DNA of 64,000 bases, taken from NCBI GenBank assembly GCA_964016885.1, contig OZ024743.1:127782001-127846000 (forward strand), read 5' to 3'. Position 1 is the stretch's first letter. Each line of letters opens with the position of its first letter. The stretch is from Eledone cirrhosa. Its lineage: Eukaryota. This document shows positions 20,533 to 52,410 of this stretch, piece after piece. A model generated the notes under the pieces. It was given only the letters and a program-made list of their open reading frames with translations. It was not told the origin of the DNA and ran no database searches. The translations under genes were made by a program, and so were the position numbers.

Positions 20533-20715
20533 TAACGAAGGAAATGTGGTAAGGAGCAAGGTGGACCATAACGCACCAAAGTACTCAATACTTAGGGTAG
20601 TAGAGTGGGTAATAGGAACCAGTAAGACCCCGACGGCTGAGCTCAAGCCGTTACGACGGCTAATTTAGCCGTCGAGACGGCTTGAGCTCAGCCGTCGGGG
20701 TCTTACTGGTTCCTA
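20533..20715 (-). mobile_element. Family D fold-back element in (TA)n, containing the 3' half of an HHR
   Basis: ~80-bp unique tail plus palindrome 20612-20715 with GA(G)A-cggc-ttgagctca-gccg-TC. Confidence 0.8.
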
Positions 20716-20779
20716 TATATATATATATATATATATATATATATATATATATATATATATATATGTATATATATATGAG

Positions 20780-21443
20780 TGAGGGACATAAAATACTACA
20801 TAACTGTGATTTATGACTATGGGACATAAAATCTGAAGTAACTGTAAGATATGACTGTTGGATATAAAATCTTAAGTAAGTGTGAGATATGATTGTGGGG
20901 CATAAGATCTTAAATAACTGTGAGATATGACTATGGGACATTAGAACTTAAGTAACTGTAAGATGTGACTATGGGACATTAGATCTTAAGTAACTGTAAG
21001 ATATGATTATGGGACATTAGATCGTAAGTAACTGTAAGATATGATTATGGGACATAAGATCTTAAGTAACTGTAAGATATGATTATGGGACATAAGATCT
21101 TAAGTAACTGTAAGATGTCACTATGGGACATTAGATCTTAAGTAACTGTAAGATATGATTATGGGACATTAGATCTTAAGTAACTGTGAGATATGACTAT
21201 GGGACATTAGATCTGAAGTAACTGTGAGATATGACTATGGGGCATAAGATCTTAAGTAACTGTAAGATATGATTATGTGACATAAGATCTTAAGTAACTG
21301 TAAGATATGACTATGGGACATTAGATCTTAAGTAACTGTAAGATATAACTATGGGACATGAGATCTTAAGTAACTGTAAGATATGACTATGGGACATTAG
21401 ATCTGAAGTAACTGTAAGATATGACTATGGGACATTAGATCTT
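20780..21443. repeat. 38-bp tandem satellite, about 17 units (agtaactgtaagatatgactatgggacattagatctta)
   Basis: gggaca recurs every 38 nt (e.g. 21125, 21163). Confidence 0.95.
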
Positions 21444-22364
21444 ATTATATACAATTGGCCAGTCACAACGTTTTATTTGTCACCACATACATAGTACTGG
21501 CCAACAAAGGAGTTGAATAATTCTACAGGTCAGTCATCATCATCATCGTTGCCGCCGCCGTCGTCGTCGTAATCATCATTATCGTCGTCGTCGTAATCAT
21601 CATTATCGTCGTCGTCGTCATCGTCGTCGTCATCATCATAATCATCATCATCATCATCATGCTTGTCATATATATATATATATATATATATATATATATA
21701 TATATATATATATAGCAATAATAATAAATTTGAAGACTAAAATCCAAAGAGGGCTCGGTAAGGATAAATATATATCAAATATATAAGAGCCGTAGAGCAA
21801 ATGTTTATTAAAATAACAGATTAAAGTTTAAGCAAAGAATCGCTGCTTTCACCCTTAACGGGATCTTCTGAAACTAAAAAAGTCAATCTGTGAACGCAGA
21901 AGTGAATATTTCATAAAACGTTGCAACCGAAGGAAGACAGGAAGACGATACTTTGGTTCGTGGAAACGTTCCCTGACAATGAACGGGAAAAAACGAAGAT
22001 AATACTTCATTATGTGGTGCGCTGAAAACAATTACACGCAAAGACAAAACCACGTTTAAGGTATAACTGAAGTCGTAGACAAATATTCTATTTAGGAAAC
22101 CGAATGAATCTCGGCTTCACAGTTAAGAATAAAGTAAATAAAATACAGAGGCAATTGAAATTAAATATATACATACACGCATCCAAATACGTACATATAC
22201 AAGCATACGCAAAAACACACCCCATGGGTATGCCAATACAAGCACGTACACAAAAAAAAACAAAAAAACCGCACGCACATACAGAACCCACGCAACGCCT
22301 GTACCCGCACACATACGAACGTATACACCAAATACACATAACATATATAAAAATATATATTTAT

Positions 22365-22493
22365 AATGTCCCTTAATCATATCTTACAGTTACTTAAGAT
22401 CTAATGTCCCATAATCATATCTTACAGTTACTTAAGATCTAATGTCCCATAATCATATCTTACAGTTACTTCAGATCTAATGTCCCATAGTCA
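22365..22493. repeat. Inverted outlier of the 38-bp satellite (~3.5 units)
   Basis: taatgtcccataatcatatcttacagttacttaagatc is the reverse complement of the 20780-21443 unit. Confidence 0.9.
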
Positions 22494-23409
22494 TATATAA
22501 AAATATATATATATGTGTGTGTGTGTGTGTGTGTGTGTGTGTATACATAATTAAATAAACGTATATAAATCTACACACGTAAATACGTATAGGTTAGTAT
22601 ATATTACATGTATGTTTTGTGAAGGTACATATACTTTCTCCTACGTATATTTGCTTGTATATGTTATGGCGTATATATTATATATACTGGTACACGTGCA
22701 TCTGGTTATGTGTATACGGGAGTTTTTGCGTCTGTGTGAGTATGCGGGTTCGTACGTATGTAGGGTGTGTGTATATGTGTAGTTTGTGTTTTGGTTGACG
22801 TTCGTCCGGGAACATATGTGTATTTACATGTATGTATGTATGTGCGCGCGTTATATACGTATTTACGTGTGTATATTTATATACGTTTATTTAATTATGT
22901 ATACACGCACACACACACACATATATATATATATTTTTATATATATGTTATGTATATTTAGTGTATACGTTCGTATGTGTGCGGGTACATGCGTTGCGTG
23001 GGTTCTATATGTGCGTGCGGGTTTTTTTTTTGGGGGGGGGGGTTGTGCACGTGCTTGTATTTGCATACCCATGGCGTGTGTTTTCGCGTATGCTTGTATA
23101 TGTACGTATTTGGATGCGTGTATGTATATATTTAATTTCAATTACCTCTGTATTTTATTTACTTTATTCTTAACTGTGAAGCCGAGAATCATTCGGTTTC
23201 CTAAATAGAATTTTAGTCTACGACTTCAGTTATACCTTAAACGTGGTTTTGTCTTTGCGTGTAATTGTTTTCAATGCACCTAATAATGACGTATTATCTT
23301 CGTTTTTTTCCGGGAACGTTTCCACGAACCAAAGTATCGTCTTCCTGTCTTCCTTCAGTTGCAACGTTTTTTGAAATATTTACTTCTGCGTTCACAGATT
23401 GACTTTGTT

Positions 23410-23460
23410 AGTTTCAGAAGATCTCGTTAAGGGTGAAAGCAGCGGTTCTTTGCTTAAACT
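23410..23460 (+). ncRNA. HHR-like motif with CAGAAGA core
   Basis: agttt-CAGAAGA-tctc-gttaa-gggt-GAAA-gca-gcggttctt-tgc-TT-aaact. Confidence 0.45.
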
Positions 23461-49582: not shown

Positions 49583-49585
49583 ATA

Positions 49586-49720
49586 TTATAACGAAGGAAG
49601 TGTGGTAAGGAACCAGGTGGACCATAACGCACCAGAGTACTTGATACTTTGGGTAGTAGAGTTGGTATAGTCGTCAAAACGGCCTGAGCTCTGTCGTCGG
49701 GGTTTTGACTCTTTCCCTAT
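49586..49720 (-). mobile_element. Family D element with an internal deletion
   Basis: Tail plus the right arm only. Confidence 0.7.
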
Positions 49721-50798
49721 ATATATATATATATATATATATATATATATATATATATAGAGAGAGAGAGAGAGAGAGAGAGAGAGAGAGAGAGAGTGAG
49801 TGAGAGAGAGAGAAAGAAACAGAGAGAGCGAATTAGGAATTAGCTTCATGCATAGGTGTATACAGATATGTATTGAAATTTCGTATTTTTAAAGAAACAC
49901 GGTATGTTTATGGATAAACATTTATTTATATTTAAAGAGTGGTATGCTCATGCGCGGAAATACTATAAAATAGCTTATGAAATAGGATGAGGACTCTTAA
50001 GGACGGAAAAAGAAGTTGCCATCAGCCGTTACGATGAATCAAATCTCATATCTACCAGATACCGGCTAGGCACTTTGAACCATTAAACCAAGGTATCGTG
50101 ACAACGGACCCAGTTCCTCCGTAAAATCGGATCGTTAACAGACCCTCTGACGGAGGAAACCCGCGAGGTGGGGAGGCTGTTGCAGTGAGTGTCACTGGCC
50201 ATTGACCGCGGAAATGCCTTTGCAGTTTTGTCCGCGGGACGTAGCCTAAACATCGCCCCGCCTCAGGCATAGAGCCTATCGCCCTGTTTCCTCCCCCTCC
50301 CCTTTTCCGTGATCACATAGTCCTTGCTTTTTTCCTCGTTTTCCTCTCATTATGGCATTCATATCCCTTTCTTCTACTTTTCTATACAGTCAGTTCTGCC
50401 TTTTTACCCCTTCTCCCCTGTTTTATGCTTGGTTTTGTTTTATCATTTTTTCTTTTTTTCTTTTTCTTTTATGCTTCCATCAATATTTGTAATGTTATTC
50501 ATACACCTGTGAATTGATTTATTAAACATAAAATAGCTTATTGATAGGCACATATAGTAAGTACAGCGAATATTTTAAAATTTATTTTAAAACTTTTTCT
50601 CTATTTGCTAGACCTGGATTTTATATATTTAATTATGTCTCATATAAAATAATACAACCAACTTTCCACGGAATACTGTATAGTTAGCACCCCAAACACT
50701 TAATTGGGATTATACTTAGGTATATCCTAATGTTTGTTGAGTGAGAAGGAGTTGACCAGAGTATCGCTTAAAGATTTCTCTGTTAATGTATTAAATAT

Positions 50799-51180
50799 AT
50801 ATATTAGTAAAAAGGAAAAGAAAATGCTGACAAATTTTTCCCAGTGAAAAATAGTTTAATTAGGAATAAGTATAAATTAGTAATAAGTATTGGTTAGTAT
50901 TCAGTTTTAGTTTTAAGTTTTAACCGGTTGCGCATTTCTAATGCTTTTCAAAAATAATTTTGAGATAGAACGCTCGTGATGTTTGCTCTAATCATTAGAT
51001 TAGAGCAAACATTAGAGCAAACCGGTTAAAACTTAAAACAAAAACTGAATACTAACCATACTTATTACTAATTTATACTTATTCCTAATTAAAGTATTTT
51101 TCACTGGGAAAAATTTGTCAGCATTTTCTTTTCCTTTTTACTAATATATCACAACTCGTGTGTCACACCTCTATTTTTTT
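50799..51180 (+). mobile_element. Family C fold-back element, copy 1
   Basis: Arms 50799-50928 / 51021-51149, centre ctaatc-atta-gattag, tail cacaactcgtgtg. Confidence 0.8.
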
Positions 51181-52236
51181 TAAATATATATATATATATA
51201 TATATATATATATATATATATATATATATATATATATATATATATGTATCATCATTTCATTTTTCATCATTTCATTTTACGTCCGCTTTTCCCTGCTTGC
51301 AAAGGTGGGACGGGAACTGATTCTGGCTTGATTTCTACAGCTGGATGCACTTCCTAACACCAACCTCATTTACAGTGAGTGGTGGGTGCTTTTTTGCCGT
51401 GGGACCTCCACGACCACTTTTGCAGTGGAATGATATTGACCCCAGTCCCTATTATCTCATTTCTACAGCTGAGTAAACTGGAGCAATGTGAAATAAAGTG
51501 TCTTGCTCAAGGAAACAAGACATCACCCGGTCTGAGAATTGAACTCACAACCTTTCGATTGCAAGGCCAATGCTCTAACCACTGAGCCTCCATTTATACA
51601 TATATATATATATATATATATATATATATATATATATATATATATATATATATATATATATATATATATATATATATATATATATATATATATATATATA
51701 TATATATATATATATATATATATATATATATATATATATATATATATATATATATATATATATATATATATATATCGTCTACGATTTCACAGAACTTATG
51801 TTTACCGAATTCGCAGACCAGACCCCTTCTTCCTCCCGTTAGACCTGTGCGAAATTCCTTCCTTGCTCACATTACAACCAGGTTTGATGGTCTTTATTCT
51901 CTCGTTCACGATTTCACCGAATTTAAATTCATAGAAATTTGGGACTTCTCTCCTTCTTCCTCACTTTCTGTTGCTTCACCATTTTGTTTGTTTACCCTCG
52001 CGTCCCCTTTATTTACGTGTCCCAACGACTTTTTTTAGCCGTTGCTCGCACCAACCGGAGGTATATGGCGATGAAATGCCTATGATGGTTGGAAGATCAC
52101 TGATGAAGGACAAACTTTTTCATATGTAACCCATTTACAACTCCGCAGCGCCCTTATTATCATATATATATATATATATATATATATATATATATATATA
52201 TATATATATATGTATATATATATATATATATATATA

Positions 52237-52410
52237 TAACGGAGGAGTTGTGGTAAGGAACCAGATGGACCATAACGCACCAGAGTACTCAATATCTAGG
52301 GTAGTAGAGTGGGTAATAGGAGATAGTATTTCTGGACTAAAGTGGACTTTAGTCCAGAAATAGCCGTCGAAACGGCTTGAGCTCTGCCGTCGGGGTCATA
52401 CTCTCTCCTA
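52237..52410 (-). mobile_element. Family D fold-back element (degenerate extra pieces at 52423-52500 and 56630-56765)
   Basis: Tail, centre tttctggactaaagt-gg-actttagtccagaaa, and GAAA-cggc-ttgagctct-gccg-TC. Confidence 0.75.

What the first reader, a model, noticed from the sequence alone, without database searches (positions are those of the whole stretch)
20533..52410. Family D: palindrome centred on HHR stem II with copy-specific changes mirrored in both arms (snap-back signature)
Seen: the copies at 20533, 24183, 34551 and 52237 contain C-GAAA-cggc-loop-gccg-TC or a close variant (HHR stem III plus cleavage triplet). Where CUGANGA should lie there is instead the mirror image (tttc...). 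The variable segment differs between copies but is mirrored within each: taggaaccagtaag/cttactggttccta, taggaacgagtag/ctactcgttccta, taggaaaatgttc/gaacattttccta. The inverted arm always ends at ccta followed by (TA)n. Inference: the cDNA folds back at the stem II hairpin, self-primes the second arm, then joins the target through TA microhomology, erasing the 5' half of the ribozyme.
Basis: partly seen in the sequence, partly recalled or inferred. Interest (0 to 1): 0.75.

Follow-up and report, generated by a model that had tools for sequence, protein, structure and literature searches.

The report
Twin-primed Penelope palindromes record RNA ends
These 200-base mirror-image DNA pieces are stumps of a very abundant Penelope-type jumping gene, likely made when both cut strands of a TA repeat each copy the element's RNA and meet head to head, and their centres pile up at a likely capped RNA start and at the predicted ribozyme cut, which would expose hidden steps of how these elements jump.

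Summary
The four palindromes are real, but snap-back at hammerhead stem II is not supported. They are short head-to-head insertions of a Hydra-like Penelope retroelement (724-aa RT/GIY-YIG ORF, 3.5-kb unit) in (TA)n; at least 16,574 such short junctions exist. One arm carries an 80-nt tail, the other does not. In 29 long pairs the tailless arm is the longer in 13, by up to 3.2 kb, the tailed arm in 13, so neither arm is a copy of the other: two cDNAs, likely primed from opposite target strands. Junctions pile up at two points. At the A of TTAGTC the single extra base is C/G in 28 of 31 and sits on either arm (9 tailed, 14 tailless): a likely cap copy, marking a transcription start inside the ribozyme. 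A rarer class (302 junctions) ends at the predicted hammerhead cut, with A/T extras (17 of 19). The source ribozyme has a U3-A8 core, not CUGANGA; the subfamily with a mostly mismatched core has 2.5-fold fewer cut-site junctions. Mirrored segments are mostly subfamily marks. The architecture is known; the mechanism is inferred from DNA only.

The parts
20535..20713 (.). Copy 1: head-to-head insertion; tailed arm 20535-20665 (element sense on -), tailless arm 20666-20713 (sense on +); tail 20535-20614
24185..24377 (.). Copy 2: tailed arm 24185-24322 ends exactly at the inferred RNA start (A of TTAGTC); tailless arm 24323-24377; tail 24185-24264
   Evidence: (source offset 138 maps to 24322)
24338..24360 (+). 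Hammerhead 3' half in copy 2 (GAAA, stem III with palindromic loop, GUC); predicted cut after 24360; mirror copy at 24282-24304 on -
34554..34779 (.). Copy 3, reverse orientation: tailed arm 34640-34779 (sense on +) begins at the inferred RNA start; tailless arm from 34554 with repeated re-primed pieces at about 34591-34639
52239..52408 (.). Copy 4: tail 52239-52318, tailed arm internally deleted, junction palindrome 52327-52362, tailless arm 52348-52408
49591..49717 (.). Further copy: tail joined directly to the tailless arm (centre missing)
56628..56763 (-). Older related copy (73-78% identity), tailed arm only
52424..52490 (.). Fragment of an older related subfamily (short tail piece joined to a sense arm) in the TA run next to copy 4

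Best explanation
The palindromes are short head-to-head insertions of a Hydra-like Penelope retroelement in (TA)n, likely built from two separate cDNAs primed at the two cut strands of the target and joined at their 3' ends. Shown: the parent element (724-aa RT/GIY-YIG ORF, long 3' UTR, pLTR with a hammerhead fold), two fixed outer ends 80 nt apart (each at a TAT), one tailed plus one tailless arm per insertion, either arm longer, and two sharp junction peaks. Inferred: (1) the enzyme, probably as a dimer, nicks both strands of (TA)n; (2) each 3' end pairs with a TAT in the RNA and starts reverse transcription, one strand at each of the two sites; (3) on an RNA that starts at the A of TTAGTC (138 and 58 nt upstream of the two sites) both enzymes run off the capped end, often copying the cap as C, which gives the dominant ~196-bp class that lacks the ribozyme's 5' half; (4) on RNA cut by the U3-A8 hammerhead they run off the uncapped cut end, adding A/T, which gives a ~114-bp class; (5) on uncut long RNA they stop at scattered points, giving arms up to 3.6 kb; (6) the two cDNA ends are joined by end joining or a template jump, with trimming. 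Both arms likely come from one RNA or one donor locus. My odds: twin priming 0.85, capped start 0.75, in vivo ribozyme cut 0.7.
For: Parent: intact ORF in L321 with RWR, DKT, YRDD, CxCx5C, GIY-YIG, CxxC/CxH; window copies match its pLTR at 85-97%. Arm asymmetry: of 29 long pairs 13 tailless longer (by 119-3187 nt, 9 with ORF sequence that the tailed arm lacks), 13 tailed longer, 3 unclear; of 50 short junctions 21 tailless longer, 16 tailed longer, 12 equal or ambiguous, 1 with two tails (strict). One tail per insertion in 49 of 50. Start-site peak: longer arm ends at offset 17-18 in 29 of 50; 950 junctions have both arms ending at that A with 0-2 bases between, too tight for a priming hairpin; in the first 50, by eye, single C/G 28, single A/T 3, none 13, two bases 6 (2 CG); the C is on the tailed arm in 9 and on the tailless arm in 14 of 23 clear cases (5 unclear left out). 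Mini-tandems that contain the leader restart at the same point (L228/229, L235, L252). Contigs of runs X1 and X2 (one sample) show tails cut at many places (24223-24266) all joined to a sense arm at 24322. Cut-site peak: longer arm ends exactly at the predicted bond in 22 of 50, 7 more score +1 (5 of them blunt CCCCGGGG), falling off on both sides; 228 + 74 junctions genome-wide; single extras A/T 17 against C/G 2 (by eye in 100 listed junctions; against 3:28 at the start site, Fisher p 1.6e-8). Core control: subfamilies marked GTAAG carry U3-A8 in 19 of 19 arms, the GTAGG subfamily carries mismatched C3/A8 in 38 of 51; cut-site junctions per 1000 arms are 10.1 against 4.0 (p 4e-13). Same donor: arms differ by 2.1 within against 5.0 between copies (46 of 50 kept); 29 variants private to a pair are mirrored, in 12 of 25 long pairs (L208 set aside as the only one of its subfamily). 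Literature: a purified PLE cuts and extends both strands and starts at two internal sites that bound the tail (PMC11167929, main text read); U3-A8 cores are natural and active (PMC3088659, passages).
Against: All evidence is from genomic DNA: no RNA shows the start or the cut, and no activity was assayed. Centres of these palindromes do suffer later deletions (25 of 50 junctions are collapsed through the stem III loop; L098, L168), so short-range asymmetry alone is weak; the kb-scale cases and the cap base carry the argument. The ribozyme fold is not the minimum-energy fold (1-6 kcal/mol above it; z -0.5) and the C3/A8 subfamily still has cut-site junctions. The 2.5-fold difference could reflect subfamily age or expression. 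Copy 2's junction recurs in at least 40 near-identical copies, so some whole-unit copying is not excluded. In vitro, PAc showed no difference in start site between strands, used uncut RNA and left no reads at the cut site (PMC11167929), unlike the strict one-tail pairing and cut-site class seen here. Samples are the first hits along contig C1 and need exact motifs, so they lean to young copies. Cap copying as C is recalled knowledge; two searches gave no paper to cite.
Confidence: 0.76

Rival explanations
1. Snap-back: one cDNA from the tail end folds back, copies itself and joins the target at CCTA.
For: Arms are mirrored and from one donor; 4-6 nt loops are common among short junctions; later central deletions occur and could shorten the tailed arm.
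Against: Tailless arm longer in 13 of 26 resolved long pairs, holding up to 3.2 kb absent from the tailed arm; 0-2 nt centres in 950 junctions; the extra C lies on the tailless arm in 14 of 23 and on both in 2; tails cut short of the CCTA site are still joined to a sense arm at the start site; the centre is not the stem II loop.
Confidence: 0.07
2. Self-priming on an antisense transcript, the reading published for PLE head-to-head palindromes (PMC3846280, Discussion passage).
For: It would give head-to-head arms from one molecule; palindromic junctions are abundant.
Against: Both junction peaks are 5' ends of the sense RNA (a cap-like C at the A of TTAGTC; the sense-strand ribozyme cut), and the extra base differs between them as expected for capped against uncapped sense ends; centres of 0-2 nt cannot prime.
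Confidence: 0.05
3. Fixed MITE-like or fold-back DNA subfamilies copied whole.
For: At least 40 copies share copy 2's full length and junction at 97-100%; mirrored segments define subfamilies.
Against: 41 of 50 consecutive junction strings differ and cut across subfamilies; arms grade from about 17 nt to 3.6 kb into an RT ORF; ends are asymmetric, without terminal inverted repeats over the tail; the search selects for its own junction.
Confidence: 0.04
4. Twin priming is right, but the two peaks are reverse-transcriptase stops at RNA structure or deletion hot spots, not a capped start and a ribozyme cut.
For: A G run and a hairpin lie at the cut site, a small hairpin at the upstream peak; blunt CCCCGGGG can arise from a CG overlap; no RNA evidence.
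Against: Symmetric ends with untemplated bases rather than microhomology; opposite base bias at the two peaks (p 1.6e-8); dependence on core type; a stop at the foot of stem III would end one base further than observed; most copies read through the cut site.
Confidence: 0.2

Closest known systems
Hydra clade of C-terminal EN+ Penelope-like elements (PMC8557442, sections 11 and 15 read)
   Same: Single ORF with RW[K/R], DKT, CxCx5C linker, C-terminal GIY-YIG with CxxC and CxH, insertion into (TA)n, hammerhead in the pLTR.
   Different: Unit is 3.5 kb with a 1.3-kb 3' UTR (paper: generally under 3 kb); ribozyme core is U3-A8 or mismatched C3/A8, where the paper reports canonical hammerheads as universal in the clade; tail is 80 nt against the 30-40 nt given for PLEs; tens of thousands of short palindromes dominate.
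PLE insertion architecture with inverted 5'-truncated pLTR and one-sided tail (PMC8557442 section 6 passages; PMC3846280 passages)
   Same: Head-to-head inverted copy at the 5' end, tail on one side, partial tandems.
   Different: Those papers ascribe the inversion to self-priming on an antisense template or to unexplained endonuclease properties; the copies here point to two sense-templated cDNAs.
Poseidon PAc of the green anole in vitro (PMC11167929, abstract, main text and start of methods read)
   Same: Cuts and extends both strands, two internal start sites that bound the tail, predicted dimer.
   Different: No start-site homology to the target there (TAT shared here); no strand-to-site coupling there (one tail in 49 of 50 here); no sign of use of ribozyme-cut RNA there; the paper does not mention head-to-head products.
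LINE-1 twin priming (recalled, no call)
   Same: Both target strands prime on the RNA and give an inversion.
   Different: In L1 the second primer anneals upstream so the two parts do not overlap; here both start within 80 nt and copy the same region, giving a duplication in mirror image.
Non-LTR retrozymes (bioRxiv 10.64898/2026.07.22.740005, abstract and outline only)
   Same: Short non-coding, pLTR-derived, hammerhead-related repeats.
   Different: Retrozymes are tandem units with whole ribozymes; these are mirror-image by-products that mostly lack the ribozyme's 5' half.

Membership tests
EN+ Penelope-like element | Single ORF with RT and GIY-YIG endonuclease | tested here: met
   724-aa ORF with YRDD at 348 and VIY..YIG at 591; 1,974 relatives at E<=1e-20, top hit annotated PF01541. 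Pfam scan of three partial ORFs gave no family.
EN+ Penelope-like element | pLTRs from partial tandems, inverted 5'-truncated copy, one-sided tail | tested here: met
   pLTR-ORF-pLTR unit of 3,533 bp in L321 and L324; inverted arms and tail.
EN+ Penelope-like element | Hammerhead motif in the pLTR | tested here: met
   Type I fold with 5-bp stem I, YUGANAA core with free position 7, stem II, GAAA, stem III, GUC. Activity not assayed. Rfam scan of the window listed no hammerhead among the 150 of 281 matches shown.
Hydra clade | RWK motif, DKT in place of DKG, CxCx5C linker, CxxC and CxH in the endonuclease | tested here: met
   RWR at 37 (R for K), DKT at 117, CNCPDGSIC at 572, CNLC at 670, CKH at 698.
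Hydra clade | CCHH motif absent from the endonuclease | tested here: inconclusive
   Judged by eye and a loose pattern only; no alignment to reference PLE endonucleases.
Hydra clade | Insertion into (TA)n | tested here: met
   TA runs on both sides in nearly all copies read.
Hydra clade | Canonical CUGANGA hammerhead; length generally under 3 kb | tested here: not met
   First 100 cores: 64 UUGANAA, 34 CUGANAA, 2 UUGAAGA, 0 CUGANGA (by eye); unit 3.5 kb. I therefore call it Hydra-like.
Hydra clade | Groups with Hydra families in an RT tree | not tested
   No named Hydra reference sequences were fetched; the supplements of PMC8557442 were not opened.
MITE / fold-back DNA transposon | Fixed length, terminal inverted repeats at both ends, TSD | tested here: not met
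   Variable junctions and arm lengths, one-sided tail, continuity with an RT ORF; a TSD cannot be read inside (TA)n.
Non-LTR retrozyme | Tandem monomers each with a complete hammerhead | tested here: not met
   Window copies are head-to-head and lack the core; about 9% of arms reach the core (3,552 against 38,884).

The most novel reading that the evidence does not exclude
Penelope-like elements integrate by obligate, coupled twin priming: one enzyme dimer starts two cDNAs at two fixed RNA sites from the two target strands and fuses them head to head, so the genome's palindrome centres are a fossil 5'-end map of the element's RNAs. Here that map shows a capped start placed inside the ribozyme (so the 5' copy cannot cut) and in vivo cleavage by a U3-A8 hammerhead whose product is itself integrated, with frequency tracking the core genotype.
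Probability: 0.55. Interest if true: 0.75.

Novelty: new variant of a known kind. Interest (0 to 1): 0.6.

Why it matters
How PLEs make their inverted pLTR and one-sided tail, and whether their hammerheads cut in vivo, are stated as open in PMC8557442 (section 15) and PMC4209133 (passages: low activity in vitro, no in vivo evidence). Tens of thousands of copies here give a testable answer to both: which two sites prime, that each strand takes a different one, where the RNA starts and where it is cut. If right, junction counting becomes a DNA-only way to map start sites and ribozyme activity for any PLE family, and many 'MITE-like' palindromes in TA repeats of this genome are retrotransposition by-products. 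The architecture itself is known, and other agents of this scan noted twin priming in other genomes, so the added points are the cap-versus-cut base contrast, the cap base on either arm and the core-genotype dependence.

Tried and rejected
Rfam scan of the window: only microsatellite-driven miRNA matches in the rows shown. Canonical CTGANGA search: 48 hits, chance joins or other families; led to the source only through longer arms. I first misread as a fixed arm mismatch (note 1) and corrected it: those copies are perfectly mirrored. One search used mismatch-tolerant matching that overshot arm ends (23 tailless, 12 tailed); replaced by the strict count (21, 16). One search failed through a pattern error and was redone. 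Pfam on three partial ORFs: nothing. Free folding of the ribozyme region is no better than shuffles. A-to-G editing shared by both arms: no excess, 1 of 29. RNA runs: no RNA holder listed. Full-length test of the start site was mixed: of 30 leader-bearing loci 5 begin at offsets 9-21, 13 extend past the core, 12 begin downstream or gave no match, so ORF-bearing copies do not all start at the inferred site. A first comparison of subfamilies without proper denominators looked negative; supplied them. A second capped start as the cause of the cut-site peak was considered and rejected because extras there are A/T and both arms mostly keep four C. Earlier-finding look-ups by place, sequence and cap words gave nothing. 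Literature searches that found no paper proposing twin priming or cut-site junctions for PLEs; the library lacks most subscription papers, and older PLE papers on structure and promoter were not seen.
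Full report
Observation. The four copies, their mirrored segments and their CCTA+(TA)n ends are as described. The window lies in a 3.0-Gb genome rich in TA runs. Three more family pieces lie in the window. Each copy has an 80-nt stretch on one side only (the tail) and a palindrome.

Copy number. Exact patterns find 38,884 stem III arms and 16,574 short head-to-head junctions. Of the first 50 junctions 41 strings are distinct, so junctions are made afresh. At least 40 copies share copy 2's junction, but that search selects for its own junction.

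Parent element. Longer arms lead into a 1.3-kb 3' UTR and an ORF. L321 holds an intact 724-aa ORF in a pLTR-ORF-pLTR unit of 3,533 bp, with RWR, DKT, YRDD, CxCx5C, a C-terminal GIY-YIG, CxxC and CxH. These match the description of the Hydra clade, which inserts into (TA)n (PMC8557442, section 11). It has 1,974 relatives at E<=1e-20, mostly about 700 aa and 37-42% identical. The window copies match this pLTR at 85-97%, the older ones at 73-88%. Both outer ends lie at a TAT of the source, so they share three bases with the target.

The ribozyme. In the source, ACCCC pairs with the GGGGT after GTC, the core reads YTGANAA with position 7 free, and stem II pairs GCTCGGCTA with TAGCCGTC around a long insert. 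In the first 100 of 3,552 hits, by eye: 64 UUGANAA, 34 CUGANAA, 2 UUGAAGA, none CUGANGA. U3-A8 is a natural, active covariant (PMC3088659, passage). The fold lies 1-6 kcal/mol above the free minimum, and the region folds no better than shuffles.

Snap-back test. Snap-back from the tailed cDNA requires the tailed arm to be the longer; snap-back from the tailless cDNA cannot make a tail. In 29 long pairs (picked) the tailless arm is longer in 13, by 119-3187 nt and in 9 cases with ORF sequence, the tailed arm in 13, and 3 are unclear. In 50 short junctions the strict count is 21, 16, 12 equal or ambiguous, 1 with two tails. One arm has the tail in 49 of 50. Later deletions do occur: 25 of 50 junctions are collapsed through the stem III loop (by eye), so the short-range count is weak alone. 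Long arms pair with long arms (23 pairs among the first 100 hits, by eye), which points to shared templates of different length.

Mirrored changes. In long arms 29 private variants are mirrored in 12 of 25 pairs, against 103 on one arm only, with no A-to-G excess (L208 set aside). Both arms thus come from one donor; this does not separate the models.

First peak. The longer arm ends at offset 17-18, the A of TTAGTC or the next base, in 29 of 50. 950 junctions have both arms at that A; in the first 50, by eye, the gap is a single C/G in 28, a single A/T in 3 (although the template would give A/T), nothing in 13, two bases in 6 (CG twice). I fetched 42 of the 50 (all but 8 blunt ones): the C lies on the tailed arm in 9 and on the tailless arm in 14, 5 unclear. 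That reverse transcriptases copy a cap as C, and that TTAGTC resembles an initiator, are recalled, not from a call; run-off with untemplated bases is described for R2 (PMC2718515, passage). The distances 138 + 58 = 196 nt match copy 2, and copies 2 and 3 have their tailed arm ending at this A. Mini-tandems holding the leader restart at the same point, and contigs of one sample show many short tails joined to a sense arm there. Against: of 30 leader-bearing loci only 5 begin at offsets 9-21 and 13 extend past the core.

Second peak. Among 50 very short junctions the longer arm ends exactly at the predicted scissile bond in 22, and 7 more score one further, 5 of them blunt joins. Genome-wide there are 228 and 74 such junctions in two subfamily groups (7 and 13 of the first 50 extend a few bases and may be deletions). 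Single extras are A/T in 17 and C/G in 2, the reverse of the first peak (p 1.6e-8). The group with U3-A8 in 19 of 19 arms has 10.1 such junctions per 1000 arms; the group with mismatched C3/A8 in 38 of 51 has 4.0. The 87 arms are not a random sample, and age or expression could add to the difference.

Model. Both strands of (TA)n are nicked; each primes at a different TAT; two cDNAs run to the RNA's 5' end (capped start, ribozyme cut) or stop earlier on long RNA; their ends are joined head to head. The parent, the ends, the asymmetry and the peaks are shown; nicking, priming, cap, cleavage and joining are inferred.

Known work. The inverted copy and tail are described (PMC8557442, passages and sections 11, 15). 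PMC3846280 (passages) reads the palindromic junctions as self-priming on an antisense template. PMC11167929 (parts 1-2 of 4, covering the main text) shows both-strand extension and two start sites in vitro, finds uncut RNA to be the substrate and does not discuss head-to-head products. PMC4209133 (passages) reports low activity and no in vivo evidence for PLE hammerheads. Searches found no paper with twin priming or cut-site junctions for PLEs; supplements were not opened, and those of PMC8557442 may hold U3-A8 Hydra ribozymes. Unchecked notes of this scan reach twin priming, and once ribozyme-cut ends, in other genomes (seen after my own tests); they are not independent support.

Verdict. Interest 0.6.

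Noticed in passing
window 29210-29633: Perfect 335-bp palindrome (99.7%) after a TA run with a canonical CTGATGA hammerhead in each arm (29307 -, 29447 +) and a one-sided extension: likely the same twin-arm product of another PLE family.
   Followed up: partly
window 50805-51183 and 56846-57271: Two copies of another TA-embedded palindrome family with a one-sided 30-40 nt tail and different centres.
   Followed up: no
window 4717-5079, 34240-34463, 57687-57825, 48401-48468, 46776-46834: Further palindromes, most next to TA runs; 46775-47060 also holds a CTGAAGA hammerhead-like motif.
   Followed up: no
window 54675-55282: Remnant of another PLE's endonuclease region on - (tblastn 28%, E 7.5e-18) overlapping a 72-bp palindrome at 55211-55282.
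   Followed up: partly
L031, L033, L034, L040, L044: A sense arm of this family starting near the inferred RNA start is joined to sequence of other PLE families (antisense GIY-YIG frames or other hammerheads): possible mixed insertions from two different RNAs.
   Followed up: partly
L003, L117, L124 (inverted); L121 (direct): Flanks beyond the TA runs are duplicated in inverted or direct orientation around some insertions; unexplained.
   Followed up: no
L228/L229, L235, L252, L232, L236: Mini-tandems in which a piece ending in the leader or first codons is joined to a new unit beginning at the inferred start or at the ribozyme cut: template jumps between short RNAs.
   Followed up: partly
L145, L106: The two arms carry marks of different subfamilies, a hint that two RNAs or later conversion sometimes contribute.
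   Followed up: no
window 21810-23475: A 565-bp inverted pair (91%) around simple repeats.
   Followed up: no
window 24081-24154, 35263-35313, 52921-52984: A short repeat family ending in TA runs, often next to family D copies.
   Followed up: no
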